A DNA stretch of 64,000 nt from Escherichia phage allfine. The DNA lies in the sequence record MN850633.1. The stretch is one strand, 5' to 3'. A program made the position numbers and the translations under genes. Of the stretch, positions 5,996-15,400 are shown one piece after another (position 1 is the stretch's first letter; the number at the start of each line of letters is the position of its first letter). The notes below the pieces were generated by a model that worked only from the letters and a program-made list of their open reading frames with translations, was not told the origin of the DNA and ran no database searches.

Positions 5996-7612
5996 TCAAC
6001 GTCTAAGCCCCTCATATGGGTTTCCTCTCACTAAGTCTGTGTGAGCACCCATTGATGGTGGCTTGAATAATTTAACTTCGTTAAGACTGTTGAAAGCATC
6101 ACTGGTAGCGTCCACTTGGTCATCTTTAGTTTTACCATCACCACAAAAGCCTTCAAGCTCTTGAAAGTAAGCTTCATTCCAACTACCTCTCAAGACTTTT
6201 ACAAGTCCAGCTTCAGAAGCAGCAGAAAACCCCGCAAATCGGGTAACTTTATCTTTATTTGTTGGTTTGGCTCTTGCTCGATAACCTTTCTCGGCAAGTT
6301 TCCTGATGAGGGATGTTGCGTAGGATTTACCAGCAGCGCCTGGGTCTTGAGGGATAAAAATACCAGTTCGCTTACCGTCACTTTCAGCAGTCAAATTAAT
6401 TTGTGTTTCGACTCCAGAGGGTCTATCTCTAAATCTTACTACATCAATGATATAATAGCAACCGTCTTTTTTAGATTTACCCATCTTAACACCTGCTGTC
6501 CAGTCTGGATTAGGGTTAATCTCAGATGGTAAAGTTGCTGCTAAGTCCCATGCTCTAACATCGAATACATCTTCTGGGAGTGAATCAACAATTTCACACC
6601 ATTGTCTTTGCCAATAGTTTGAACCTTCTGCACGAGCCTTCCAGTTACCGAAACGAAGTCTTGCAACGTTTACAGGGGTGTTATTTTCCAACTTACCGCG
6701 ATACTTTGGTTCTAAAAAGTCAAGAATTGGGTTATCATCAATCGTACCAGAGATGAAGGTGTATGTTTGAGGAATCTCAAGAGGGAACATTTCAAGAATC
6801 TTGTCTCTCTCCCAATCAGAAACCATCACACCATCATTCATAACATACCAACGAATACGACCACACTTTTCAGGGTCTGGATAACCTTCTTCATCTAAGA
6901 ATGGTTCTACCCAATCATAAATAAAGTGGTCTCTGTCTGGGTTCATGGAAATCTTCATGTATGAATCACCTTCAGCACCAGAACGTAGACGGGTTTGTAG
7001 GTATGAAATCTGTGAAGCAGAGAAGTGTGTACCTTCGTCAAAGTAAATAGCTGAGTATTCAATACCCTGATGGCCTTCAGCGTGCTTTTCAAGTTCTAGG
7101 TAGGTAAACTTGATAGTTGCCCCAGAAGGGAATGTGATAGTCATTTTCTGCTCGTGAGGAATCCCACCAAACTTACCAAATAGTTTCTTTGCAGCAGGCC
7201 ATAAACCACCTTGCAACTGTGTTGTATTTCGACGGAAATATACAGCATTATAGTTAGGGTCTTCAATAAATCTTAAAGAGTCCATTAACAATGCGGCAGT
7301 CTTACCAGCACCAGCAGCACCACCATAGAGAACCAAGTCAGCATTAGTATTTAAAAAGACCTCTTGAGAACCCGGCTGAGGGGCTACATAGTTCTTATCA
7401 GTCATCAATTTAAAGATGAGGCGAACTTGGTCTGGTGTGTATCTTAATAAAGTCAGAATTTGAGTTGGAAGGAATTTAGAGGGGTCTTTACCGAATGATT
7501 TGATAATTTCTTTTACTTCATCAGAAAGCCCCAACTCTCCAGCTAGGACTTTCCTAACATCTTCCACTCGCTTCTGCTTAACAGCATTTAAGTCCATTAA
7601 GCGCCTCCGCAA
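5996..7612 (-). CDS. terminase large subunit (538 aa)
   Basis: Walker A P-loop LYGGAAGAGKTAAL near N-terminus, nuclease-type C-terminal half, position at start of head module. Confidence 0.85.
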   Translation of the reverse strand: MRRRLMDLNAVKQKRVEDVRKVLAGELGLSDEVKEIIKSFGKDPSKFLPTQILTLLRYTPDQVRLIFKLMTDKNYVAPQPGSQEVFLNTNADLVLYGGAAGAGKTAALLMDSLRFIEDPNYNAVYFRRNTTQLQGGLWPAAKKLFGKFGGIPHEQKMTITFPSGATIKFTYLELEKHAEGHQGIEYSAIYFDEGTHFSASQISYLQTRLRSGAEGDSYMKISMNPDRDHFIYDWVEPFLDEEGYPDPEKCGRIRWYVMNDGVMVSDWERDKILEMFPLEIPQTYTFISGTIDDNPILDFLEPKYRGKLENNTPVNVARLRFGNWKARAEGSNYWQRQWCEIVDSLPEDVFDVRAWDLAATLPSEINPNPDWTAGVKMGKSKKDGCYYIIDVVRFRDRPSGVETQINLTAESDGKRTGIFIPQDPGAAGKSYATSLIRKLAEKGYRARAKPTNKDKVTRFAGFSAASEAGLVKVLRGSWNEAYFQELEGFCGDGKTKDDQVDATSDAFNSLNEVKLFKPPSMGAHTDLVRGNPYEGLRR

Positions 7613-7618
7613 ATAGAA

Positions 7619-7819
7619 TTATTCAGAGTCTGTAGCAGTCTCTTCTTTTTTAACTTCGAACTTTTCATCAACAGCATCAAGAAGTGCATCCATAGATGCT
7701 TCTTTAATATCAATACCTGTTGCTACAGACAATCTGTCTGCAATTGCCATGATAGTATTCTGCATAAATTCTAGCTTCTTATTAGCTTCATAAAGTTCTT
7801 TATAAACGGTCTCGCTCAT
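7619..7819 (-). CDS. hypothetical small protein (66 aa)
   Basis: ORF with GGAG Shine-Dalgarno about 10 nt upstream of ATG; directly upstream of large terminase. Confidence 0.45.
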   Translation of the reverse strand: MSETVYKELYEANKKLEFMQNTIMAIADRLSVATGIDIKEASMDALLDAVDEKFEVKKEETATDSE

Positions 7820-7854
7820 TATGTTTTCTCCAAATAGTTAACCATGTTTCCCCT

Positions 7855-7879
7855 TAAAAAAGACGGCACAGAGACCGTC
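7855..7879 (-). terminator. rho-independent terminator (minus strand)
   Basis: On minus strand GACGGUCUCUGUGCCGUC hairpin followed by UUUUUU; sits between tRNA array and head module. Confidence 0.5.
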
Positions 7880-7944
7880 AAGGAGAAACCACAATGTACG
7901 TCAGAGACATACTGTATAAGTCTTCTTATAAAGTATAACTCTGT

Positions 7945-8018
7945 AAAAAAGCCCTGTCTAAAAATACTCTTCGGTAGCGAAAGGAAGAATACTTATAGCA
8001 GGGCATTATTATTATTTT
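7945..8018. terminator. long hairpin with flanking A/T tracts, possible bidirectional terminator after tRNA array
   Basis: GCCCUG ... CAGGGC closing stem around an internally paired region, A6 tract on one side and ATTATTATTATTTT on the other. Confidence 0.4.
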
Positions 8019-8041
8019 AATTGAGAGAGAGTAAAATAACT

Positions 8042-8117
8042 TGGAGAATCCGAAGGGACTCGAACCCTTATAAACCTGTTTTGCAGACAGGCACATAGCC
8101 ATTTCTGTCACGGATTC
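8042..8117 (-). tRNA. tRNA-Cys (GCA)
   Basis: Hand fold: acceptor GAAUCCG/CGGAUUC, anticodon stem CCUGU/ACAGG with loop CUGCAAA, T-loop UUCGAGU, encoded CCA. Confidence 0.7.
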
Positions 8118-8121
8118 AAAT

Positions 8122-8214
8122 TGGAGGAAGATACCAGACTTGAACTGGTACACCGATTTCTCAGCTACTGGCAGTTTAGCAAACTGCTCCCTTACCTTTT
8201 AGGGTTAATCTTCC
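8122..8214 (-). tRNA. tRNA-Ser (GCU), type II with long variable arm
   Basis: Acceptor GGAAGAU/AUCUUCC, anticodon loop UUGCUAA, T-arm ACCAG-UUCAAGU-CUGGU, 93 nt. Confidence 0.6.
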
Positions 8215-8215
8215 A

Positions 8216-8950
8216 TTATTTCTGTAATGCGCTCTTCATTTCTGGTGTTGCAATAGTGTCAATTACACCAGTTTTACAGGCATCATCAAACCAGTCTGGT
8301 AAGATACCTGCTAAGAACCCATTGATATTCGTTTTAAGGTACTCTGCAATAAGGGCAGCTTCTTCTTCAATCATCTGCACAACTTCATCTGCATAAGCTG
8401 TAATCTTTGAGATACCTTCATTAATCTTACTGACAGCTTGGTTAGCTAAATCAGAAACAGTATCAAGACCCTTGTCAATAGCGTCTTGTAAGTCACTTAA
8501 TACATCGTTAACACTCTCTAGTGTACTGTTAATCGTATCAATAGCTTTTTGACCATATTCTGTAGCAACACCCATAATACCACTGAACGGTGTACAACCA
8601 ACTTGTTCTCCTGCTGCACCCATAACATTGGAATATCCCTTTGCTACCTGCATACGTGATGAAAACTCATCAATAGACTTTTGACCGTAGTCTGTTAGGG
8701 TCTTAGTAGTTGCTGTAGTGCTTGTAAGGCTTGTTGTAAAGCTGTTTAGAAGGACTGTTGTAAGTCCAGCAGCAACAAGTTTCTCCTGCATTGTAGGGTC
8801 TGTTACAGAACTAATAGAGCTTACAAGTGATGTAGAAGCAGCTACGGTTCCACCGAGAACTGCTGCACCAGTAATAAGTGGGTTAGAAAACCCTTTACCG
8901 GTTTTTAAGAGATTAAAAATCTCCTTACCTTGTTCTGTCATCTCTTTCAT
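8216..8950 (-). CDS. hypothetical Ser/Thr-rich protein (about 244 aa from internal Met)
   Basis: ORF 8216-9013 in track; upstream 60 nt overlaps a tRNA, so start placed at Met 22 (8950); embedded inside tRNA array. Confidence 0.45.
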   Translation of the reverse strand: MKEMTEQGKEIFNLLKTGKGFSNPLITGAAVLGGTVAASTSLVSSISSVTDPTMQEKLVAAGLTTVLLNSFTTSLTSTTATTKTLTDYGQKSIDEFSSRMQVAKGYSNVMGAAGEQVGCTPFSGIMGVATEYGQKAIDTINSTLESVNDVLSDLQDAIDKGLDTVSDLANQAVSKINEGISKITAYADEVVQMIEEEAALIAEYLKTNINGFLAGILPDWFDDACKTGVIDTIATPEMKSALQK

Positions 8951-8969
8951 TAAGCACCTTTGAAATTGG

Positions 8970-9043
8970 TAGTCCAGTGGGATTTGAACCCTCTTCTCAT
9001 GTTTTTCAGACACGCGCTTTAACCATATAAGCTACTTGGACTA
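8970..9043 (-). tRNA. tRNA-Phe (GAA), imperfect fold
   Basis: T-arm GAGGG-UUCAAAU-CCCAC, acceptor UAGUCCA/UGGACUA, anticodon stem CGUGU/ACAUG loop CUGAAAA; D-arm register ambiguous. Confidence 0.5.
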
Positions 9044-9048
9044 TAAAT

Positions 9049-9124
9049 TGGGGTGACCTACGGGATTTGAACCCGTATAGACCATGTTCACAGCATGGGT
9101 CATTACCATTTATGATAAGGCCAC
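9049..9124 (-). tRNA. tRNA-His (GUG)
   Basis: Acceptor GUGGCCU/AGGUCAC, D-stem UCAU/AUGA, anticodon stem CCAUG/CAUGG loop CUGUGAA, T-arm ACGGG-UUCAAAU-CCCGU, CCA encoded. Confidence 0.8.
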
Positions 9125-9155
9125 ATTTAAGGACTCTCGTAAGAATCCTTAGAAG

Positions 9156-9231
9156 TGGCAGCGGCATAAGGATTTGAACCTTAATAAGACAGCTTCAGAG
9201 ACTGCTGCATTGCCAGTTATGCTATACCGCT
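9156..9231 (-). tRNA. tRNA-Gln (CUG)
   Basis: Acceptor AGCGGUA/UGCCGCU, D-stem GCAU/AUGC, anticodon loop CUCUGAA, T-arm UAAGG-UUCAAAU-CCUUA. Confidence 0.7.
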
Positions 9232-9236
9232 AAATT

Positions 9237-9315
9237 TGGTACTCCATATCGGATTCGAACCGATACATAACACAGATTTTAAGTCTGGCCTCTCTGCCAA
9301 TTGGAGTAATGGAGC
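9237..9315 (-). tRNA. tRNA-Leu (UAA)?, Leu-like D-loop AAUUGGCAGAG but short variable region
   Basis: T-arm AUCGG-UUCGAAU-CCGAU, acceptor GCUCCAU/AUGGAGU, anticodon loop CUUAAAA; atypical for a type II tRNA. Confidence 0.45.
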
Positions 9316-9317
9316 AT

Positions 9318-9392
9318 TGGCGGGGGATGTTGGAATTGAACCAACTTCTTCGATTTCAAAGACCGAGGTTTTAACCTTGTAAACTAATCCCC
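9318..9392 (-). tRNA. tRNA-Gln (UUG)
   Basis: Anticodon stem UCGGU/AUCGA loop CUUUGAA, T-arm GUUGG-UUCAAUU-CCAAC; acceptor pairing imperfect. Confidence 0.55.
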
Positions 9393-9401
9393 TTTAAATC
9401 T

Positions 9402-9959
9402 TTACTTTCTCAGTGGATGAATAAAGAATGCCAACATAACTCTTTCCCTTGAGAATGCTCTTTCTTCTGGGACAACACTTTTTAGTTTCCATCCAATATA
9501 AATTCTCCAGTAAAATTGTTTACCAAAGATTTTAATTGATGGGATAAAAGCGAATAATCCCCAAGCATTCCTGTTCCACATTAGGAGATAACCAGTCTGA
9601 TTATCTTCAGGGTTAGAACTTACGTTGATATTACCTTTCCACTTAGTAACATCTTTTACATCTCTTCCTAACACATGGTAAGAGAAGTTATAAGCTTTGT
9701 TTCTCCAGAGCCATCCAACTCTTTGCATGTAGACACCTAGTTTACCAATCCATCTAATATTAGCCCATCTTTTAACGTGACCTTCATCACCATCAATTGG
9801 GTTGTCATAGGTCTCCATCCATCTGAATCCAAAAGGTAGATGTCCTTTCTTCTCACTGTAGAATGGAACTACAAAAGGTGCTAAGATAACTGCTAAGATT
9901 GCTGCAAATGGCTCTAACAAAGCTAAGAAAATCCATGAAGCATACTTCAAATATCTCAT
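9402..9959 (-). CDS. hypothetical membrane protein (185 aa)
   Basis: ORF with strongly hydrophobic N-terminus (two predicted TM helices), Trp-rich; embedded in tRNA array. Confidence 0.45.
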   Translation of the reverse strand: MRYLKYASWIFLALLEPFAAILAVILAPFVVPFYSEKKGHLPFGFRWMETYDNPIDGDEGHVKRWANIRWIGKLGVYMQRVGWLWRNKAYNFSYHVLGRDVKDVTKWKGNINVSSNPEDNQTGYLLMWNRNAWGLFAFIPSIKIFGKQFYWRIYIGWKLKSVVPEERAFSRERVMLAFFIHPLRK

Positions 9960-9978
9960 CTAAATAGCCTCTTTAAAT

Positions 9979-10054
9979 TGGCGCAGGATAAGGGATTCGA
10001 ACCCCTATTAACAGCTTCGTAGACTGTTGCTCTATCCATTTGAACTAATCCTGC
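9979..10054 (-). tRNA. tRNA-Arg (ACG)
   Basis: Acceptor GCAGGAU/AUCCUGC, D-stem GUUC/GAGC, anticodon stem ACAGU/GCUGU loop CUACGAA, T-arm AGGGG-UUCGAAU-CCCUU, CCA. Confidence 0.8.
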
Positions 10055-10059
10055 AAAAT

Positions 10060-10137
10060 TGGTGTTCCAAGACGGATTCGAACCGTCACTAGTACAAGGT
10101 TTGAGCTTGCATCCTCTGCCAATTGGGATACTGGAAC
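10060..10137 (-). tRNA. tRNA-Leu (CAA)?, Leu-like D-loop, short variable region
   Basis: Acceptor GUUCCAG/UUGGAAC, anticodon stem GCAAG/CUUGU loop CUCAAAC, T-arm GACGG-UUCGAAU-CCGUC. Confidence 0.5.
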
Positions 10138-10138
10138 A

Positions 10139-10213
10139 TGGTACTCACTAAAGGACTTGAACCTTTTTCTTCATCTTGTAAGGGTGATGTTTTACCATAT
10201 AAACTAAGCGAGT
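10139..10213 (-). tRNA. tRNA-Val (UAC)
   Basis: Acceptor ACUCGCU/AGUGAGU, D-stem GUUU/AAAC, anticodon loop CUUACAA, T-arm AAAGG-UUCAAGU-CCUUU. Confidence 0.65.
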
Positions 10214-10306
10214 ATGAAAGAGGTCTGGAGTTGTGCCGCTAACTCAACTCCGTGGAATTTGTTACGGTCTTCAGTTGACTCAAAGCGGTCTTTCACTTGA
10301 CCTCTG
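10214..10306. ncRNA. structured non-tRNA element inside tRNA array (candidate small RNA)
   Basis: Terminal 7-bp pairing AGAGGUC/GACCUCU enclosing hairpin GGAGUUG...CAACUCC; no T-arm consensus; fills gap between tRNA-Val and tRNA-Thr. Confidence 0.3.
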
Positions 10307-10309
10307 AAT

Positions 10310-10386
10310 TGGTGCTGCTCACAGGACTCGAACCTGCATTTCCATCCTTACAAGGGATGTGTAATAGCCAATTATACGAAAGCAGC
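10310..10386 (-). tRNA. tRNA-Thr (UGU)
   Basis: Acceptor GCUGCUU/GAGCAGC, anticodon stem CAUCC/GGAUG loop CUUGUAA, T-arm GCAGG-UUCGAGU-CCUGU. Confidence 0.8.
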
Positions 10387-10392
10387 ATTGTT

Positions 10393-10467
10393 TGGAGCAT
10401 CCAGAGGGAATCGAACCCTCAACCTCAGTTTGGAAGACTGTAATTTTCCCGTTTAAACTATGGATGC
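10393..10467 (-). tRNA. tRNA-Gly (UCC)
   Basis: Acceptor GCAUCCA/UGGAUGC, D-stem GUUU/AAAU, anticodon loop CUUCCAA, T-arm GAGGG-UUCGAUU-CCCUC. Confidence 0.75.
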
Positions 10468-10473
10468 ACTAAT

Positions 10474-10549
10474 TGGTGGAGAAGCAGGGAATTGAACCCT
10501 GTACTTAAGTTTGCAAAACTTATGTTTTAACCATGTAAACTACATCCCC
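10474..10549 (-). tRNA. tRNA-Ala (UGC)
   Basis: Anticodon stem UAAGU/ACUUA loop UUUGCAA; acceptor carries the G3-U70 wobble pair characteristic of tRNA-Ala; T-arm CAGGG-UUCAAUU-CCCUG. Confidence 0.8.
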
Positions 10550-10555
10550 ATTGTT

Positions 10556-10631
10556 TGGTACAGGTGGAGGGAATTGAACCCATCGTCTTACTGATTAAGA
10601 GTCAGCCGCATAACCATTTTGCTACACCTGC
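10556..10631 (-). tRNA. tRNA-Lys (CUU)
   Basis: Acceptor GCAGGUG/CACCUGU, anticodon stem GCUGA/UCAGU loop CUCUUAA; paralogous to the tRNA at 11790-11865. Confidence 0.6.
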
Positions 10632-10638
10632 ATTAATT

Positions 10639-10716
10639 TGGTAGGAGACAAGGGATTCGAACCCTCAAACATCTCGTTCTAAGCGAGATAGGTTTACCAA
10701 TTACCGTCAATCTCCC
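10639..10716 (-). tRNA. tRNA-Leu (UAG)?, atypical
   Basis: Acceptor GGGAGAU/GUCUCCU, anticodon stem UCUCG/CGAGA loop CUUAGAA, T-arm GAGGG-UUCGAAU-CCCUU; D-arm irregular. Confidence 0.5.
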
Positions 10717-10975
10717 ATTAAATCTTTTTAGAGAACTTCTAAGAACCTAAGCAACAAGGTTCCACAACAAGCTGTAATAACCTTAGAAGCCCTCTAAAAA
10801 GACCTAAAAAGGTCTTTGCATAGTCTTGTTTAATCCGGTGACTAGAACCTTTGGAGAGCTTGATATTATCTCTTCTCCGTGACACCTACTAGGTGCTTTA
10901 CTGTGCGTGTACGACAATACACTAGGGATACCAAAGCAACATCCGAATGAAGCTTGGCTTTAAATCTTATTAGGC

Positions 10976-11061
10976 GGTAAGTAAAGGAGTCGAACCCTCA
11001 CCGTATCTCTACAGTGGCAACTGTTTTCAAGACAGTTTGGCTACCATTAGCCGCTACCTAC
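10976..11061 (-). tRNA. tRNA-Ser (UGA), type II
   Basis: Anticodon stem ACUGU/ACAGU loop CUUGAAA, long variable arm, acceptor GUAGGUA/UACUUAC; boundaries approximate. Confidence 0.6.
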
Positions 11062-11075
11062 CCCTAATAAGACTT

Positions 11076-11158
11076 TGGCATGGGACGGAGGAGTTGAACC
11101 ACTTTGAAACGGTTTTGGAGGCCGTTGCTCATGCCTTAGAGTCTTAACATCGTCCCAC
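11076..11158 (-). tRNA. tRNA-like, possible tRNA-Trp (CCA), atypical 5-prime half
   Basis: Acceptor GUGGGAC/GUCCCAU with encoded CCA, anticodon-like arm ACGGC-CUCCAAA-ACCGU, about 7 extra nt in D region. Confidence 0.4.
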
Positions 11159-11301
11159 ACTATAATTCGAAGCTTACCGTATTTTCACAACACTGTAAAG
11201 CCCCTTCTCAGATTATTTACATGTTCTGGAAAACATGAGATACAGACCACCTCCTTACACGGAGACCCGATAAGGTCGTCTAAGTAATCTGCTAACTAAA
11301 T

Positions 11302-11383
11302 TGGTCGAGGCGGCAGGACTCGAACCCGCATACTCCACTTACTCGGTTAACGGCGGTTTAGAAGACCGCTGAGATACGCCCCG
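11302..11383 (-). tRNA. tRNA-like, possible tRNA-Arg (UCU), lacks canonical D-arm
   Basis: Good T-arm GCGGG-UUCGAGU-CCUGC and acceptor CGGGGCG/CGCCUCG plus CCA; anticodon arm GCGGU-CUUCUAA-ACCGC directly after acceptor; 23-nt extra segment. Confidence 0.4.
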
Positions 11384-11631
11384 TAATTATCTTTAAAGAC
11401 TCTCTTAGAAAGCCCTTAAAGATGCCCACCTTATTAATCATACCGTGGGCTAGTACGCCAAATTCTTTGATGAGGGATTGGAAGACCTCACTGGTGTTTA
11501 GCCTATCAAGCTACTGCCAGAAAAACATTGTCGTTTGCATTTATTTTAAATTTGCAAAATAGACGCTACGCAACGAAAACTAAGGTTACTATAAAGTAGT
11601 CACATCTCAATGTCAACAACTTTATTGAAAT

Positions 11632-11707
11632 TGGTACTGGTAGGTGGAATCGAACCACCGATGTTCCCTTATCAGGGGAGTGTTATAACCTTCTTAACTA
11701 TACCAGC
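11632..11707 (-). tRNA. tRNA-Ile (GAU)
   Basis: Acceptor GCUGGUA/UACCAGU, D-stem GUUA/UAAC, anticodon loop CUGAUAA, T-arm GGUGG-UUCGAUU-CCACC. Confidence 0.75.
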
Positions 11708-11708
11708 T

Positions 11709-11785
11709 TGGAGGTTCAGATGGGAATCGAACCCACATTCATAGGGCTTATGAGACCCTTGCATTACCTTATCTGCGACTGAACC
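11709..11785 (-). tRNA. tRNA-Met (CAU), elongator-type acceptor
   Basis: Acceptor GGUUCAG/CUGAACC, anticodon stem AGGGU/GCCCU loop CUCAUAA, T-arm GUGGG-UUCGAUU-CCCAU. Confidence 0.75.
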
Positions 11786-11789
11786 ATAT

Positions 11790-11865
11790 TGGTAGAAGTG
11801 GAGGGATTCGAACCCATCGCCTGTCAGATTAAAAGTCTGCCGCATAACCATTTTGCTACACTTCC
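11790..11865 (-). tRNA. tRNA-Lys (UUU)
   Basis: Acceptor GGAAGUG/CACUUCU, anticodon loop CUUUUAA, D region identical to tRNA-Lys(CUU) paralog. Confidence 0.65.
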
Positions 11866-12122
11866 ATTAAATTACCTTTGTAGATAAGCTACCCAGACTT
11901 GCTTAAGGTCTGTAGCGATGTGCCTTGTTGGGTTTAAATCTAGAATTTACCCTTTCACCCTTTGTGGTCGCATACTCACAGGTAAGCTTAATAACTTATC
12001 TACAAAGATAATTACCAGACCGTTGTTTATCATCTTAAGTGCTACCATTACACCAACTCGACATCTGCCGAGTGAAGGAATCGAACCTTCGCCTTTTCTT
12101 TACCGGAGAAATAGATTGTTTA

Positions 12123-12152
12123 AGTTTTGCTGTAAACGGTCTTCTGTAAATT
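12123..12152. repeat. repeat motif TTGCTGTAA-N2-GGTCTTCTGTAAA, copy 1 of 4 in tRNA array
   Basis: Near-identical copies at about 12205-12232, 12596-12629 and 12763-12790; CCAGACC partner forms long-range inverted repeat with GGTCTTCTG. Confidence 0.5.
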
Positions 12153-12204
12153 TGTTGAGCCAGACCAAGTTTTAAATTTTCAAAATTAAATTGGCTTGAA
12201 ATTT

Positions 12205-12232
12205 CATACATTCTTGCTGTATTTGGTCTTCT
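12205..12232. repeat. repeat motif copy 2 (TTGCTGTATTTGGTCTTCTG)
   Basis: Shares core with copies at 12123, 12596, 12763; upstream partner CCAGACCAAG at about 12163. Confidence 0.45.
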
Positions 12233-12294
12233 GCTCCTTTAAAGAATACTCGTAAGAACTCTTTAAGGGAGGGGCTAAATAGCCCTCTCAAAAT

Positions 12295-12371
12295 TGGCGG
12301 CTACGATGAGACTTGAACTCACATCATCTCCCGTGACAGGGGAGTATTTTCTCCAGTTAAACTACATAGCC
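12295..12371 (-). tRNA. tRNA-Asp (GUC)
   Basis: Acceptor GGCUAUG/CGUAGCC, anticodon stem CUCCC/GGGAG loop CUGUCAC, T-arm GUGAG-UUCAAGU-CUCAU, CCA encoded. Confidence 0.85.
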
Positions 12372-12376
12372 TTTAT

Positions 12377-12464
12377 TGGTGTGCCGTGTAGGAGTCGAAC
12401 CTACCGAGTCTCAATGACAAGGGATTTACAGTCCCCACCGCTACCATCTACGGGATAACGACAC
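12377..12464 (-). tRNA. tRNA-Tyr (GUA), type II
   Basis: Acceptor GUGUCGU/ACGGCAC, anticodon stem GGGGA/UCCCU loop CUGUAAA, long variable arm, T-arm GUAGG-UUCGACU-CCUAC. Confidence 0.75.
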
Positions 12465-12476
12465 ATTTAAATTTTG

Positions 12477-12550
12477 CGGTTAGTCAGGGATTCGAACCCT
12501 GTGCCATTCGCTTAACAGGCGACCGCACATACCTTATGTGCTTCCTAACC
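12477..12550 (-). tRNA. tRNA-Asn (GUU)
   Basis: D-stem GCAC/GUGC, anticodon loop CUGUUAA, T-arm CAGGG-UUCGAAU-CCCUG; CCA not encoded. Confidence 0.75.
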
Positions 12551-12595
12551 TTAATACATTGCCAGACCGTGTTTTTCTTTTATCCGCAAAAAGTA

Positions 12596-12629
12596 GTTTG
12601 TTGCTGAATACGGTCTTCTGTAAATTTGG
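12596..12629. repeat. repeat motif copy 3 (TTGTTGCTGAATACGGTCTTCTGTAAATTTGG) with upstream CCAGACCG partner at about 12571
   Basis: Same core as 12123 and 12763 copies. Confidence 0.5.
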
Positions 12630-12703
12630 AGGCGGGTGCAGGAGTCGAACCTGCCGATACCATGCTAATGAGACATGTGAGACGCCCTTTCTCTATACCC
12701 GCA
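12627..12703 (-). tRNA. tRNA-Met or Ile2 (CAU)
   Basis: Anticodon stem CAUGU/GCAUG loop CUCAUUA, D-stem GAGA/UCUC, T-arm GCAGG-UUCGACU-CCUGC; position 1-72 mismatch in one register. Confidence 0.6.
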
Positions 12704-12762
12704 ATTCTTAATGACCAGACCAAATATCTTCTTTGTCCGATTTCGTGTCAGATGAGTAGATT

Positions 12763-12790
12763 AAGTTTGCTGTAATTGGTCTTCTGTCAA
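12763..12790. repeat. repeat motif copy 4 (TTGCTGTAATTGGTCTTCTGTCAAAA) with upstream CCAGACCAA partner at about 12714
   Basis: Same core as other copies; on minus strand reads TTGACAGAAGACC. Confidence 0.5.
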
Positions 12791-12793
12791 AAC

Positions 12794-12871
12794 TGGCGTT
12801 CCAGAAGGGATTTGAACCCTCAAATATCCACTTTGAAAGAGTGGTGACTTTACCATTTTGTCTACTGGAAC
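12794..12871 (-). tRNA. tRNA-Glu (UUC)
   Basis: Acceptor GUUCCAG/CUGGAAC, anticodon stem CCACU/AGUGG loop CUUUCAA, T-arm GAGGG-UUCAAAU-CCCUU, CCA. Confidence 0.8.
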
Positions 12872-12878
12872 ATTAATT

Positions 12879-12955
12879 TGGTCTCTGTTGGAGGACTTGA
12901 ACCTCCGGCCTTACCGCCCCAAACGGAACGCTCTACCAAGCTGAGCTAAACAGAG
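12879..12955 (-). tRNA. tRNA-Pro (UGG)
   Basis: Acceptor CUCUGUU/AACAGAG with C1-G72 typical of bacterial tRNA-Pro, D-stem GCUC/GAGC, anticodon loop UUUGGGG, T-arm GGAGG-UUCAAGU-CCUCC. Confidence 0.8.
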
Positions 12956-13072
12956 ATAAATTTTTCAAACTCTATGTAACCACTTTAACATTATTTTTTA
13001 GTGATTGTCAAGAACTTTTTTAAAATATCTTTCAGTATCTTAGAAAAGCTCTCGTTTCGTTTCTATGTAGAA

Positions 13073-13101
13073 CATATTAAAGGGTATTAAACACATTGTC
13101 A
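13073..13101 (-). promoter_or_regulatory. sigma70-like promoter TTGACA-N17-TAATAT with hairpin in spacer, facing tRNA array
   Basis: Minus strand reads GTATTGACAatgtgtttaatacccttTAATATG; 9-bp inverted repeat AAGGGTATT/AATACCCTT overlaps spacer; about 110 nt upstream of first tRNA. Confidence 0.5.
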
Positions 13102-13120
13102 ATACCCTTTTTAAAACTTT

Positions 13121-14536
13121 TTACCAGATGTAACGGTCAATCATTACTGCTTTGAGCATTACGCTGATTGGGTCAAACTTCTCACCACCAAGCAGAGCTT
13201 TTAAAGTGGCTGGAGAGAACCCTGATACCATTGCTACACCGTTATCCTTAACAGATACTTCGCAAGTACCATTACGGTTTGCTAAGTACCAGAATACCAG
13301 TTGTGGCATCTCATATCCAGCTTTTTTGTACTTACTCTGAATTGCTTCAAAGTTTGTACGACCGTTAGCTCCATCAACCTGATTGAACTCCATATCGGAG
13401 AAGATGATAAGCTTACTTGGCATATCTTTCTGAGTCAAGTTGTTTCTTTTACCTGTTTCAAGAATGCGGTCAAAAGCTGCTTGTAAGTTAGTTGAGCCAT
13501 ATTCAACGTGTCGCATCACCTGACGATGACGGTTTCGTAAATCACCACTCAGTTCGATGAAGTGAGGGTTTGTTGAGTAAACCATTAACTCATTCTTAAA
13601 GCAACCAGTATTGCGTTCTGCTACATACAAGGCAAGTGATACACCAATATCAAGGGCAGTGATTGAACCAAGATTCACCCAAGACATTGAGCTTGAAACA
13701 TCGGTCATACACAAGATGTTCTCACCTTCTGCCATCCAGTTTGGTAGTGCTTTCCACTGCTCATTGGCAACATCTGCATTACCATGCTTGATAGACTTAA
13801 TCACATCGTATGGGTAAACAGCACCAGCGTTAATCTTAGCCTCACCCTTTGAGAGTGATTCGATGTAAGCTTTGTAACGTTCTCCATCTTTACGGTTAAA
13901 GAGCTTTTGGTAACGTGCAGCAGCGAGTGAAGGAATCTTGCTGTAGTCAATCTTACCAAACTCATTAGCAGAGATTTTTTGCTCAACTGTATCAGATAGT
14001 GCAGACAACAGTGTGCGGTACTCTTTCTCACTCAAGTTGGCAAACTTGCAGAAACGTTTTATAAACTGCTTATGACGTGGTTTGACTCGTGGTAACCACT
14101 TAGCCGCCAAACCTGCTGTTGCAGGGTCTAGTAATGCTGCTTCTAGATGTTTGAAGGCATCTGTCTCGAAACGAGTACCTACGAAGATTTTGAAGTCATC
14201 AAAACGACCAAGTTCTGCAATCTTATCCATAATGCGAAGAACCTGCGTAGGCTCTAAAACTTTGTCTTCAATCGCTTGAAGTAAAACAGTTCTGAAGGCT
14301 TTACGCTCACCCATACCTTCTCGTACATCTCGCATATGAAGCAAAATACGAACTGCAACATCAACATCCTCACGCAAAGCTTTGTAGAACAGGTCTGGTA
14401 AGATTTCTACGTTGCTACGGCTTGAACCAGCAGCTTTGTAAAAGTCTACAAGAGCAGACATTGATGAAGTATGGTTTACAGCACCATTTTCAGTTCGACC
14501 TGCATGAAGGTGCGCATGTTTAAATAATTCGCTCAT
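13121..14536 (-). CDS. vWA-domain protein, possibly TROVE/Ro60-like (471 aa)
   Basis: MIDAS-type motif MTDVSSSM followed about 100 aa later by LIIFSDMEF beta strand (vWA fold) in C-terminal third; N-terminal 270 aa helical; co-directional and immediately upstream of tRNA/tRNA-like array. Confidence 0.5.
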   Translation of the reverse strand: MSELFKHAHLHAGRTENGAVNHTSSMSALVDFYKAAGSSRSNVEILPDLFYKALREDVDVAVRILLHMRDVREGMGERKAFRTVLLQAIEDKVLEPTQVLRIMDKIAELGRFDDFKIFVGTRFETDAFKHLEAALLDPATAGLAAKWLPRVKPRHKQFIKRFCKFANLSEKEYRTLLSALSDTVEQKISANEFGKIDYSKIPSLAAARYQKLFNRKDGERYKAYIESLSKGEAKINAGAVYPYDVIKSIKHGNADVANEQWKALPNWMAEGENILCMTDVSSSMSWVNLGSITALDIGVSLALYVAERNTGCFKNELMVYSTNPHFIELSGDLRNRHRQVMRHVEYGSTNLQAAFDRILETGKRNNLTQKDMPSKLIIFSDMEFNQVDGANGRTNFEAIQSKYKKAGYEMPQLVFWYLANRNGTCEVSVKDNGVAMVSGFSPATLKALLGGEKFDPISVMLKAVMIDRYIW

Positions 14537-14617
14537 ATTTTACTCTCTTCTCTCATTTGTTTGTTGATGTGACAGACTTTAGAGCAACTTTGTAGAGTCT
14601 GTCAACACCTTTTAAAA

Positions 14618-14989
14618 TTATTTTTTGAGAGTCGCTACAGCAGAGAACGTTGGTTTGTTATCTGTCTGAGACTGACCACCATTATCAGGGGTCTTCTTAG
14701 TGTCTGCTGCAATCGCTTTCATCTCACCTGCTGAGTGAGTCATGATGGTTTTACCAGCCTCCATCATCGACTTCAGGTTTACATCGTCAGTCGTCAAACC
14801 GAACTCTGCAAGCTTAGCAGCATCCCTTGTAACAACCGCCTCAAACAACTTTGCAGCAAACTCAGCAGAATTATCAATGGTCAGTTGAGCTTTTACAAGT
14901 GAGCTTTTGTTACGAGAGCCTTTTGGTCTTCCAGATGGGTTTCCAGACTGGCCTTTTTTAAACTGGCCTTTGTTTGTTCTGTTTTTCAT
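14618..14989 (-). CDS. hypothetical basic protein with GNPSGRPKG motif (123 aa)
   Basis: N-terminal KGQSGNPSGRPKGS motif seen in small phage DNA-binding proteins; first gene of minus-strand unit. Confidence 0.5.
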   Translation of the reverse strand: MKNRTNKGQFKKGQSGNPSGRPKGSRNKSSLVKAQLTIDNSAEFAAKLFEAVVTRDAAKLAEFGLTTDDVNLKSMMEAGKTIMTHSAGEMKAIAADTKKTPDNGGQSQTDNKPTFSAVATLKK

Positions 14990-15116
14990 TGGTATGCCTC
15001 TTATAAGACCTCTTAAAAGGCTTTTAAGATAAAAGATAGATATCCAGAAAGATATCTGTTTAAATAGCCTTTTTAGAGGAACCTTTTAAGTTATCTTCTA
15101 AGTATTTATAAGCCTA

Positions 15117-15138
15117 CACCTTGTCAAGTACTTTGTCA
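15117..15138. promoter_or_regulatory. conserved 22-bp motif CCTTGTCAAGTACTTTGTCAAC at strand-switch region
   Basis: Near-identical copy at 60186-60207 in the other divergent region; contains two TTGTCAA half-sites around AGTAC; related shorter variants in array cassettes. Confidence 0.45.
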
Positions 15139-15160
15139 ACAACTTTTTTAACTTGCAATA

Positions 15161-15189
15161 GTTCTTGACTTGTTGTATGGATTACTGTA
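15161..15189 (+). promoter_or_regulatory. candidate promoter TTGACT-N17-TACCAT for plus-strand small-gene block
   Basis: -35-like TTGACT and weak -10 about 50 nt upstream of first plus-strand ORF. Confidence 0.3.
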
Positions 15190-15238
15190 CCATCTTACTT
15201 AAAGCTGTAGGTCTGCCTTGTTCTACAAAGGAGACTTA

Positions 15239-15400
15239 ATGAGAAAATCAAACAACCCGAAGAAAGGTAAAAATACCAATCACTGTAAGGAATCAAAAAG
15301 GGTAGAGTTACTCTACTATTCATCCTCTGAAATTGGTCTGTACCTGTTCTTTCAAAATTACAGAAGACAAGAGGATTATCTATGTGTAGTTCCCAATTAG
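15239..15400 (+). CDS. hypothetical small basic protein (53 aa)
   Basis: ATG at 15239 preceded by AAGGAGA Shine-Dalgarno; track ORF 15218 used an upstream alternative start. Confidence 0.4.
   Translation: MRKSNNPKKGKNTNHCKESKRVELLYYSSSEIGLYLFFQNYRRQEDYLCVVPN

What the first reader, a model, noticed from the sequence alone, without database searches (positions are those of the whole stretch)
13121..14536. vWA-domain protein with possible TROVE/Ro60-like N-terminus directly upstream of the tRNA and tRNA-like RNA array
The 471-aa protein has a MIDAS-type motif and a downstream hydrophobic strand consistent with a vWA fold after a helical N-terminal domain, the layout of Ro60/Rsr. Ro60 proteins bind Y RNAs, and bacterial and phage Y RNAs are known to mimic tRNAs. 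The gene is co-directional with an array that contains several non-canonical tRNA-like elements, so a phage Ro60-Y RNA module is a real possibility.
Basis: inference. Interest (0 to 1): 0.6.

Follow-up and report, generated by a model that had tools for sequence, protein, structure and literature searches.

The report
Phage Ro60-like protein with Y-like RNAs
A Felix O1-type phage gene encodes a divergent Ro60-like ring protein, whose near-identical copy in a sister phage is already known to defeat a bacterial defence, and four unannotated small structured RNAs (one a tRNA mimic) lie between the tRNA genes just downstream, look like its RNA partners, and recur beside this gene in many unrelated phages.

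Summary

What is new is a set of concrete RNA candidates. Four copies of an unannotated structured RNA lie in the tRNA spacers 330-1100 nt downstream (12711-12791, 12558-12625, 12156-12238, 12011-12151). Each has a covarying two-part closing helix followed by an invariant CAGCAA. The longest copy carries a T arm, a closed acceptor hairpin and a D arm in the circularly permuted order of YrlA.

The family recurs on the gene's strand, often abutting it, in phages of Proteobacteria, Actinobacteria, Firmicutes and Campylobacter. It is absent from control tRNA arrays. Rfam's YrlA model does not detect it.

Binding between the protein and these RNAs is inferred, not shown.

The parts
13121..14536 (-). 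Ro60-like protein gene (DUF2828 + DUF7788; helical HEAT-like domain plus MIDAS vWA domain); ortholog of Bas63 gp130
14576..14605 (-). sigma-70-like promoter (TTGACA-18-TAAAGT) just upstream of the gene
   Evidence: consensus match only
13074..13110 (-). hairpin after the stop codon overlapping a promoter-like site (TTGACA-17-TAATAT) that reads into the tRNA/RNA array
   Evidence: consensus match only
12982..13011 (-). second promoter-like site (TTGACA-18-TAAAGT with TG) reading into the array
   Evidence: consensus match only
12711..12791 (-). E3: short Y-like RNA (closing helix + ACAGCAA). It fills the spacer between tRNA-Glu and tRNA-Met almost exactly.
   Evidence: R2 43.3 bits; orthologs; MFE shows both stems
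12558..12625 (-). E2: short Y-like RNA filling the spacer between tRNA-Met and tRNA-Asn
   Evidence: R2 43.0 bits; the lower stem covaries among orthologs, UUAC/GUAA versus UUGC/GCAA
12156..12238 (-). E0: short Y-like RNA (lower stem GAGC/GCUC)
   Evidence: R2 36.8 bits
12011..12151 (-). E1: long Y-like RNA with a YrlA-type permuted tRNA mimic. Lower stem 12149-12146/12015-12012; upper stem 12142-12135/12024-12017; CAGCAA 12132-12127; anticodon-arm-like hairpin 12111-12095; T arm 12090-12074; closed acceptor hairpin 12073-12056; D arm 12054-12038.
   Evidence: R1 152.7 bits and R2 108.2 bits; MFE reproduces the structure; covariation; Rfam sees only a partial tRNA
8042..12955 (-). co-directional array of 25 tRNA genes in which the four RNAs are embedded (context)
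14618..14989 (-). DUF5681 gene, the conserved upstream neighbour of the Ro60-like gene in Ounavirinae-like phages (context; role unknown)

Best explanation
The gene encodes a divergent Ro60-type protein: a helical ring-like domain joined to a MIDAS vWA domain. I propose that it forms ribonucleoprotein particles with four small RNAs encoded 0.3-1.1 kb downstream on the same strand. The proposed steps are as follows. (1) The RNAs are transcribed with the tRNAs from the promoters at about 13100 and 13000. Processing of the flanking tRNAs (RNase P at the downstream tRNA, 3' trimming of the upstream one) releases them, because E2 and E3 fill their inter-tRNA spacers to within 1-7 nt. (2) The shared module is a 4-bp lower stem, an asymmetric internal loop (5'-ANA / 3'-G), a 7-8-bp upper stem and single-stranded NCAGCAA. 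This module is the protein-binding site, analogous to the bulged helix of Y RNAs. (3) The variable interior is the effector module. In E1 it is a circularly permuted tRNA mimic like YrlA, which would tether a tRNA-binding or RNA-decay/repair factor or act as a decoy. (4) The particle serves RNA surveillance and counter-defence during infection. In a sister phage the protein is required against the Ppl defence system. What is shown here: the fold, the family, the synteny, the RNA structure with its covariation, and its association with the gene across phages. What others have shown: the anti-Ppl phenotype. What is inferred: expression as discrete RNAs, binding, and the effector.

For: RNA: four copies in the window and nowhere else in its 64 kb. 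They are positionally conserved in Felixounavirus, Suspvirus, Mooglevirus and contigs whose protein is 53-63% identical. Analogous elements with unrelated stem sequences follow the gene in Klebsiella phage FBKp34.

Covariation on 40 sequences: 91.4% of cells paired, against 59.9% in shuffles and 36-42% in slid controls; 30 of 31 pairs show double-sided changes; 0 of 500 shuffles reach the observed values. RNAalifold independently predicts the closing helix, with all 11 pairs compensated.

Association: all 57 R2 hits (E<=0.01) lie on the gene's strand. In 14 of 24 loci the nearest hit is within 500 nt of the gene, and in 9 it is within about 130 nt. There is a 51.5-bit hit 95 nt after the 'Ro-like RNA binding protein' gene of mycobacteriophage Kingsolomon, and weaker gene-abutting hits in Listeria, Staphylococcus and Campylobacter phages.

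Model-free test: CAGCAA occurs at 2.0 per kb on the gene strand within 300 nt of the gene (58 of 81 loci), against 0.35 per kb farther away and 0.08 per kb on the opposite strand (p about 1e-40 and 1e-23).

Controls: T5-like and rV5-like tRNA arrays give 0 hits. The T4-like array gives only a 31.6-bit tandem-tRNA artefact.

Architecture: the order of arms matches published YrlA, namely T stem-loop, closed acceptor stem-loop, UA, D stem-loop. Precedent: canonical phage Ro60 proteins bind adjacent Y-like RNAs.
Against: No binding or expression data exist for these RNAs. In the PhageMaP experiments gp130 alone, from a plasmid or inserted in T7, restored plaquing on Ppl hosts, so that phenotype does not need the phage RNAs. 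The protein does not hit the TROVE Pfam model. The RNAs are not detected by Rfam YrlA and lack its GNCGAA motif in the expected place. Thermodynamic z-scores are modest, -1.6 to -2.0. The covariation alignment was fitted to the model. 23 of 81 loci show no CAGCAA within 300 nt, and Vibrio phage ValKK3 gave no model hit. DUF2828 genes usually sit in tRNA clusters, so part of the association could reflect a shared habitat, and only three control arrays were tested.
Confidence: 0.6

Rival explanations
1. The protein works on its own as a protein-level inhibitor of a host defence (Ppl), for example through its MIDAS/vWA face. The CAGCAA hairpins are unrelated features of phage tRNA clusters, such as processing, spacer-stabilising or transcript-punctuation elements, that share the genomic neighbourhood.
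For: gp130 alone rescues T7 on Ppl hosts. DUF2828 genes are nearly always embedded in or beside tRNA clusters, so co-location could be indirect. E2 and E3 coincide with inter-tRNA spacers.
Against: The same hexamer and hairpin design is kept in phages of hosts from different phyla, whose processing enzymes and promoters differ. This points to a phage-encoded reader. In many loci the element abuts the gene, within 10-130 nt. tRNA arrays without the gene lack the element. The fold is that of an RNA-binding ring protein whose relatives bind adjacent RNAs.
Confidence: 0.22
2. The protein does bind the hairpins, but they act in cis as operators in its own mRNA or the array transcript, giving autoregulation or control of tRNA-cluster expression, rather than as free Y-like RNAs that recruit effectors.
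For: In many distant loci a single short hairpin lies immediately 5' or 3' of the coding sequence. A hairpin and promoter overlap sits right after the stop codon in the window.
Against: The window has four copies, up to 1.1 kb away and separated from the gene by promoters and tRNAs. The position relative to the gene flips between upstream and downstream among lineages. A conserved tRNA-mimic domain with covarying T, acceptor and D arms is hard to explain for an operator.
Confidence: 0.12
3. The elements are not a real RNA family. They are decayed tRNA remnants or tandem-tRNA artefacts plus chance repeats.
For: Chen et al. warn that adjacent tRNAs mimic the YrlA order. My model gives such artefacts at about 23-32 bits. 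Rfam sees only a partial tRNA in E1.
Against: The window copies score 37-108 bits, and three of them have no tRNA-like part at all. The closing helix covaries in every pair. The model-free CAGCAA enrichment and strand bias are extreme. Copies are conserved across genera with compensatory changes.
Confidence: 0.03

Closest known systems
Bas63 (Escherichia phage JohannRWettstein) gp130, PhageMaP preprint (PMC11482910)
   Same: It is the ortholog: 463/471 identical residues, with the same position directly upstream of tRNA-Pro/Glu/Met/Asn/Tyr/Asp. The authors noted the structural similarity to Ro60 and suggested Y RNAs. They showed that deletion impairs growth on Ppl hosts and that the gene can be transferred to T7.
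   Different: The preprint suggested that some annotated tRNA genes might be Y RNAs and named none. The candidates found here are unannotated spacer RNAs with a defined motif and structure, all four of which are also present in Bas63.
Bacterial Ro60 (Rsr) with YrlA/YrlB Y RNAs, and canonical phage versions such as mycobacteriophage Bxz1 gp220
   Same: The protein has a ring-like helical domain plus a MIDAS vWA domain. The RNAs are encoded on the same strand within 4 kb. There is a long RNA with a permuted tRNA mimic (T arm, closed acceptor stem, UA linker, D arm) alongside shorter RNAs that lack it, and the 5'/3' ends form the putative protein-binding helix.
   Different: The protein is about 80-90 residues shorter and has no TROVE Pfam match, whereas Bxz1 gp220 hits TROVE at 9e-50. 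The RNA signature is ANA/G internal loop + NCAGCAA rather than GNCGAAN0-1G. Rfam YrlA detects the Bxz1 RNA (32.5 bits) but nothing here, and my model detects nothing in Bxz1. In this family the RNAs are embedded in large tRNA arrays.
Thermus phage phiLo phiRo60 with Yrl1/Yrl2 (PMC12135203; PDB 9KOP, 9L5Y)
   Different: phiRo60 is a TROVE-domain protein, and its Yrls carry the CGAA motif. No tRNA array or tRNA-mimic domain is reported in the passages read.

Membership tests
Pfam DUF2828 + DUF7788 / PHROG 850 ('RNA-binding protein') | Significant match to the family profiles over the full length | tested here: met
   DUF7788 2.3e-43, DUF2828 1.1e-29, phrog_850 7.3e-184 covering residues 1-471
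Ro60 / Rsr (TROVE family) | Sequence match to the TROVE domain (PF05731) | tested here: not met
   0 of 43 family members hit TROVE even at E<=10. The control Bxz1 gp220 hits at 9.4e-50.
Ro60 / Rsr (TROVE family) | Fold: helical HEAT-like ring domain followed by a vWA domain | tested here: met
Ro60 / Rsr (TROVE family) | Ro60-type vWA domain with MIDAS motif (DxSxS...T...D) | tested here: met
   D279, S281, S283, T349 and D381 are invariant in 43 homologs. Pfam vWA_Ro60 is hit by 8/43 members, best 1.7e-4. The best PDB profile hit is the Ro60 MIDAS strand, but at E=0.33 it is not significant.
Ro60 / Rsr (TROVE family) | Binds Y RNA on its outer surface and single-stranded RNA ends in the central cavity | not testable with these tools
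   This needs RIP/EMSA or a structure of the complex.
YrlA (Rfam RF02553) Y RNA | Detected by the YrlA covariance model | tested here: not met
   No YrlA hit at E<=1 in 7600-15300 or at E<=10 in 11866-12294, and none at gathering score in 15 related loci. The model is present and works on Bxz1: 32.5 bits, E=3.9e-4.
YrlA (Rfam RF02553) Y RNA | Encoded on the same strand within 4 kb of the Ro60 gene | tested here: met
   E3, E2, E0 and E1 start 330, 496, 883 and 970 nt after the stop codon, all on the minus strand.
YrlA (Rfam RF02553) Y RNA | Permuted tRNA-like domain (T stem-loop, closed acceptor stem-loop, D stem-loop) inside a helix formed by the 5' and 3' ends | tested here: met
   The E1 structure is recovered by MFE. 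All helices covary. The layout matches Wang et al..
YrlA (Rfam RF02553) Y RNA | GNCGAAN0-1G motif near the 5' end in the Ro-binding module | tested here: not met
   The only match (GGCGAAGG at 12093) lies at the junction before the T arm, not in the closing helix. The conserved motif is NCAGCAA.
Y RNA in the functional sense | Stable small RNA physically bound by the Ro60-type protein | not testable with these tools
   No expression or binding data are available.

The most novel reading that the evidence does not exclude
DUF2828-type proteins and the CAGCAA-hairpin RNAs form a second, previously unrecognised lineage of Ro60-Y RNA particles that is much more widespread in phages than the canonical TROVE/YrlA pair. 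It occurs in hundreds of sequenced phages of Proteobacteria, Firmicutes, Actinobacteria and Campylobacter, including Felix O1, P100-like Listeria phages and KVP40-like vibriophages. Its RNAs are produced from tRNA-array spacers. The tRNA-mimic member works as a tether or decoy in the conflict over tRNAs and RNA decay between phage and host immunity.
Probability: 0.4. Interest if true: 0.85.

Novelty: new variant of a known kind. Interest (0 to 1): 0.7.

Why it matters
Ro60-Y RNA particles are a classic but still poorly understood RNA-surveillance system. In phages they have been studied only for the few that carry canonical TROVE proteins. This gene family is present in at least 709 phage genome records, and one member has a demonstrated counter-defence phenotype. 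Until now its RNA side was only a guess.

A defined RNA family, with coordinates, a consensus motif, a covariation-supported structure and a working covariance model, makes that guess directly testable. The tests are RIP-seq, EMSA with point mutants, and deletion of the RNAs in Bas63. It also gives annotators something to mark in tRNA arrays that are currently labelled as empty spacers.

If the pairing is confirmed, it would show that tRNA-mimicking Y RNAs arose or diversified inside phage tRNA clusters. That fits the published model that YrlA derived from dimeric tRNA transcripts. It would also link phage tRNA arrays to a dedicated RNP.

Tried and rejected
1. Sequence search of the PDB with the single protein found nothing. 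With a 43-sequence profile, Ro60 was the top hit but at E=0.33, so it was not used as evidence on its own.
2. NCBIfam gave only noise.
3. Rfam scans of the array, both the wide scan at E<=1 and the narrow scan at E<=10, found no Y_RNA or YrlA. Weak miRNA, snoRNA, plastid-UTR and tmRNA hits were judged to be chance or antisense-tRNA artefacts.
4. The YrlA motif GNCGAAN0-1G has one match in E1, but in the wrong place (the T-arm junction), so it was rejected as a Ro-binding motif.
5. I considered reading the 5' TTGACA/TTTACA of the elements as -35 boxes. The -10 regions are poor, the hexamer is not conserved in E0 or in distant copies, and those bases pair with the 3' tail as the lower stem with covariation.
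6. A possible extra 'anticodon-stem' pairing in E1 (CUUAA/UUAAG) is not conserved in SUSP2 and was dropped (reading).
7. The supplementary YrlA alignments of Chen et al. are not held, so their model could not be rebuilt. Rfam RF02553 on Bxz1 served as the control instead.
8. The MAFFT alignment of distant copies misplaced the acceptor hairpin, so model-based alignment was used, with the bias that implies.
9. Hit L036 5402-5527 and the window hits at <=23 bits were rejected as tandem tRNAs.
10. The 'tRNA-OTHER' annotations in phage NBEco005 are ordinary tRNAs, not the elements.
11. A literature search for DUF2828 returned only plant and tardigrade papers. The Wolin 2020 review is not held. The mechanism of Ppl could not be established from the library.

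Full report
**1. The observation.**
The window is a Felixounavirus (Felix O1-like myovirus). Region 12900-14700 is 97-98% identical to Shigella phage JK55, Salmonella phage Meda and about 200 other records. ORF 13121-14536 on the minus strand encodes 471 aa. All 25 tRNA genes found by ARAGORN (8042-12955) are on the minus strand, starting 165 nt after its stop codon. So the gene does lie directly upstream of the array and is co-directional with it.

A MIDAS motif is present: D279-V-S281-S-S283, with T349 and D381. Every one of these residues is invariant in an alignment of 43 homologs that go down to 40% identity.

**2. What the protein is.**
Pfam assigns DUF2828 (1.1e-29) and DUF7788 (2.3e-43). 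PHROGs assigns phrog_850, 'RNA-binding protein', over the full length (7.3e-184). Sequence searches of the PDB are not significant, although the best profile hit is the MIDAS strand of Ro60 (E=0.33).

An AlphaFold2 model built on the 43-sequence alignment is confident (pLDDT 86.9, pTM 0.87). It is all-helical to about residue 265 and then forms a vWA domain.
- Foldseek against the PDB returns only Ro60/TROVE structures in the first ten places, aligned over the whole length (E from 8e-8 to 4e-6). Generic vWA domains follow.
- At the sequence level, 8 of 43 family members hit Pfam 'Ro60 vWA domain' (best 1.7e-4), and none hits TROVE.

The protein is therefore a structurally clear but sequence-divergent Ro60-type protein. 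It is not a member of the TROVE family as Pfam defines it.

**3. What is already known.**
Some records annotate homologs as 'vWFA protein', 'RNA-binding protein' or, in mycobacteriophages, 'Ro-like RNA binding protein'.

The PhageMaP preprint (PMC11482910) studied Bas63, a Felixounavirus. It reported the following:
[quoted passage not shown] - Deleting gene 130 cripples plaque formation on a host carrying the Ppl defence, and complementation restores it.
- gp130 alone, from a plasmid or inserted into T7, rescues T7 on Ppl.

I verified that bas63_0130 has the same length and the same downstream tRNA order, and is 463/471 identical to the window protein.

**4. The search for an RNA partner.**
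Rfam found no Y_RNA or YrlA in the array. Reading the non-tRNA spacers on the minus strand, I noticed a repeat: 5' CAGAAGACC-R-N-U-N-CAGCAA ... Y-GGUCUGG 3'. There are four copies:
- E3, 12711-12791
- E2, 12558-12625
- E0, 12156-12238
- E1, 12011-12151

E2 and E3 fill the spacers tRNA-Glu/tRNA-Met and tRNA-Met/tRNA-Asn to within 1-7 nt.

Each copy can form a 4-bp lower stem, an asymmetric internal loop (5' AGA / 3' G) and a 7-8-bp upper stem, followed by single-stranded UACAGCAA and a variable interior. In E1 the interior consists of an anticodon-arm-like hairpin, a T arm (GAAGG-UUCGAUU-CCUUC), a closed 5-bp hairpin and a D arm (GGUG-UAAUGGUAG-CACU). This is the circularly permuted order that defines YrlA: T stem-loop, closed acceptor stem-loop, D stem-loop. 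ViennaRNA's MFE for E1 reproduces this structure. The z-scores of the four copies are only -1.6 to -2.0, however, so thermodynamics alone proves little.

**5. Comparative evidence that the RNA family is real.**
All four copies are conserved in position in Bas63, fjerdesal, SUSP2 (Suspvirus), and Sf14, 3HA14 and ESh21 (Mooglevirus). They show compensatory changes. The lower stem varies as UUAC/GUAA, UGAC/GUCA, UUGC/GCAA and GAGC/GCUC, and the E1 acceptor hairpin as ACUCG/CGAGU versus ACACG/CGUGU.

Metagenomic contigs whose protein is only 53-63% identical keep the same arrangement of DUF5681 gene, Ro-like gene and tRNA array. They carry the elements with thoroughly changed but still complementary helices.

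In Klebsiella phage FBKp34 (Stephanstirmvirinae, 52% protein identity), the 480-nt gap after the gene holds at least three analogous hairpins. Their stem sequences are unrelated, but they keep the same UACAGCAA. One has a T arm, a 7-bp closed acceptor hairpin, a UA linker and a canonical D arm.

I built a covariance model from seven E1-type copies (R1). Searching 757 kb of DUF2828-flanking DNA from IMG/VR gave 106 hits, 105 of them on the gene's strand. They included full-length hits next to genes only 39-48% identical to the window protein.

On the model-based alignment of the 40 best hits:
- 91.4% of cells form standard pairs, against 59.9% in column shuffles and 36-42% with slid partners.
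- 30 of 31 pairs show double-sided changes.
- No shuffle in 500 reaches any observed measure.

That alignment leans towards the model. RNAalifold run on it without my structure still predicts the two-part closing helix, with compensatory changes in all 11 pairs.

**6. Association with the gene.**
A second-generation model (R2) gives the following:
- It finds the four window copies (108, 43, 43 and 37 bits) and nothing else in the 64-kb window. A filter-free scan of 7600-15300 adds only tandem-tRNA artefacts at <=23 bits.
- Across 810 kb it gives 57 hits at E<=0.01, all on the gene's strand.
- Of the 24 loci outside the window (relatives' contigs, FBKp34 and IMG/VR) with a hit of at least 35 bits, the nearest hit is within 500 nt of the gene in 14 and within about 130 nt in 9.
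- Control tRNA arrays from phages lacking the gene are negative: a T5-like array (35 tRNAs in 30 kb) and an rV5-like array give no hits. A T4-like array gives only a 31.6-bit hit spanning two adjacent tRNAs, the artefact Chen et al. describe.
- In named distant phages, mycobacteriophage Kingsolomon has a 51.5-bit full-architecture hit 95 nt after its 'Ro-like RNA binding protein' gene. Listeria, Staphylococcus and Campylobacter phages have weaker hits (24-29 bits) abutting the gene. Vibrio phage ValKK3 has none.

A test that uses no model agrees. CAGCAA on the gene's strand within 300 nt of the gene ends occurs 95 times in 47.5 kb (58 of 81 loci; 2.0 per kb). The rate is 0.35 per kb farther away and 0.08 per kb on the opposite strand (binomial p about 2e-40 and 6e-24). 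Two thirds of these motifs are preceded by a 7-nt strand with a perfect downstream complement, and the stem sequences are unrelated between lineages.

The hexamer and design persist across phages whose hosts belong to different phyla. The reader of the motif is therefore most simply a phage factor, and the adjacent co-oriented gene is the obvious candidate. This last step is inference.

**7. Relation to YrlA.**
As a positive control I took mycobacteriophage Bxz1. Its gp220 is a canonical Ro60 (TROVE 9e-50, vWA_Ro60 4e-54). Rfam's YrlA model (RF02553) gives a 32.5-bit, E=4e-4 hit 189 nt upstream of that gene. So the model exists and can see a phage YrlA, yet it sees nothing in this window. Conversely, R2 finds nothing in 31 kb around Bxz1 gp220.

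The two protein families thus each have their own RNA family. The architecture is the same: the ends form a helix, there is a conserved 5'-strand motif, and there is a permuted tRNA mimic plus shorter paralogs, as with YrlA and YrlB. The sequence signatures differ: CAGCAA with an ANA/G loop here, GNCGAAN0-1G there.

The anticodon-arm-like hairpin kept in the Ounavirinae E1 has CUNNNAA loops with a freely varying triplet. This fits the published idea that such RNAs arose from dimeric tRNA transcripts.

**8. Mechanism and its limits.**
The best-supported reading is a Ro60-like RNP. The RNAs would be co-transcribed with the tRNAs from the promoter-like sites at 13102-13074 and 13011-12982. tRNA processing would free them, the protein would bind them through the closing-helix/CAGCAA module, and the variable interior would engage other factors.

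By analogy with Rsr/Y RNA/PNPase and with phiRo60/Yrl/PNPase, and given the neighbours in other phages (an RtcB-type ligase and a phosphohydrolase in Listeria phage LMLPA3, a phosphoesterase in an Enterococcus phage), the likely arena is RNA decay, repair and tRNA-centred conflict with host defences.

The weak points are these:
- There are no expression or binding data.
- gp130 alone suffices against Ppl in a heterologous setting.
- About a quarter of loci lack an obvious element within 300 nt.
- Only three control arrays were tested.
- The covariation alignment was fitted to the model.

I put about 0.95 on the fold assignment, about 0.9 on the RNA family being a genuine structured RNA, and about 0.6 on the two forming a particle.

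**9. Verdict.**
The protein-level idea is already in the literature. The analysis adds a concrete, previously unannotated RNA family that makes the Ro60-Y RNA hypothesis testable and extends it to a large, host-diverse set of phages. I classify it as a new variant of a known kind, with interest 0.7.

Noticed in passing
window 11866-12010 (minus strand): A further structured RNA of about 145 nt lies directly after E1. It has a closing stem of about 20 bp and a conserved CCUUAAGCAA. It is conserved in SUSP2, Sf14, ESh21 and the distant contigs L008-L010. RNAalifold predicts 29 pairs, 19 of them with compensatory changes. There is no Rfam hit.
   Followed up: partly
window 11305-11383 (minus strand): A tRNA-like gene is missed by ARAGORN but scores 31.7 bits with Rfam tRNA. 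Relatives annotate it as tRNA-Arg(TCT).
   Followed up: partly
window 11385-11690 (minus strand): Sub-threshold tmRNA and permuted-tmRNA-like matches (15-29 bits) occur here, with another odd tRNA-like sequence carrying a CCA-type anticodon loop near 11506-11590.
   Followed up: no
window 9125-9155, and within 10717-10972, 11063-11631, 12239-12294 (minus strand): A second, different hairpin repeat recurs in the array spacers. It has the loop UUCUUACGAG, for example UAAGGAUUCUUACGAGAGUCCUUA.
   Followed up: no
window 8216-9013 and 9402-9959 (minus strand): Two protein genes sit inside the tRNA array: DUF7217 (265 aa) and DUF7338 (185 aa). The listed start of the DUF7217 ORF overlaps tRNA-Phe at 8967-9042.
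   Followed up: no
window 14618-14989 (minus strand): A DUF5681 gene (123 aa, basic N-terminus) immediately precedes the Ro60-like gene. It keeps this position in contigs whose Ro-like protein is only 53-63% identical.
   Followed up: partly
L095 (Listeria phage LMLPA3) 3959-8017: The DUF2828 gene lies in a tRNA cluster with an RtcB-type RNA ligase, a metal-dependent phosphohydrolase and a 'ribosome associated inhibitor A' nearby. This recalls the bacterial rsr-rtcBA RNA-repair operon.
   Followed up: no
L047 293-616: A permuted tmRNA (Rfam RF04321, 71.7 bits, above the gathering score) lies 3.4 kb upstream of a DUF2828 gene in an IMG/VR contig.
   Followed up: no
L005 (Klebsiella phage FBKp34) 5003-5116: A 114-nt feature is annotated as a second tRNA-Asp, and Rfam matches it as a tRNA with a long insert. 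It lies just after the Y-like elements and may be another composite tRNA-like RNA.
   Followed up: no
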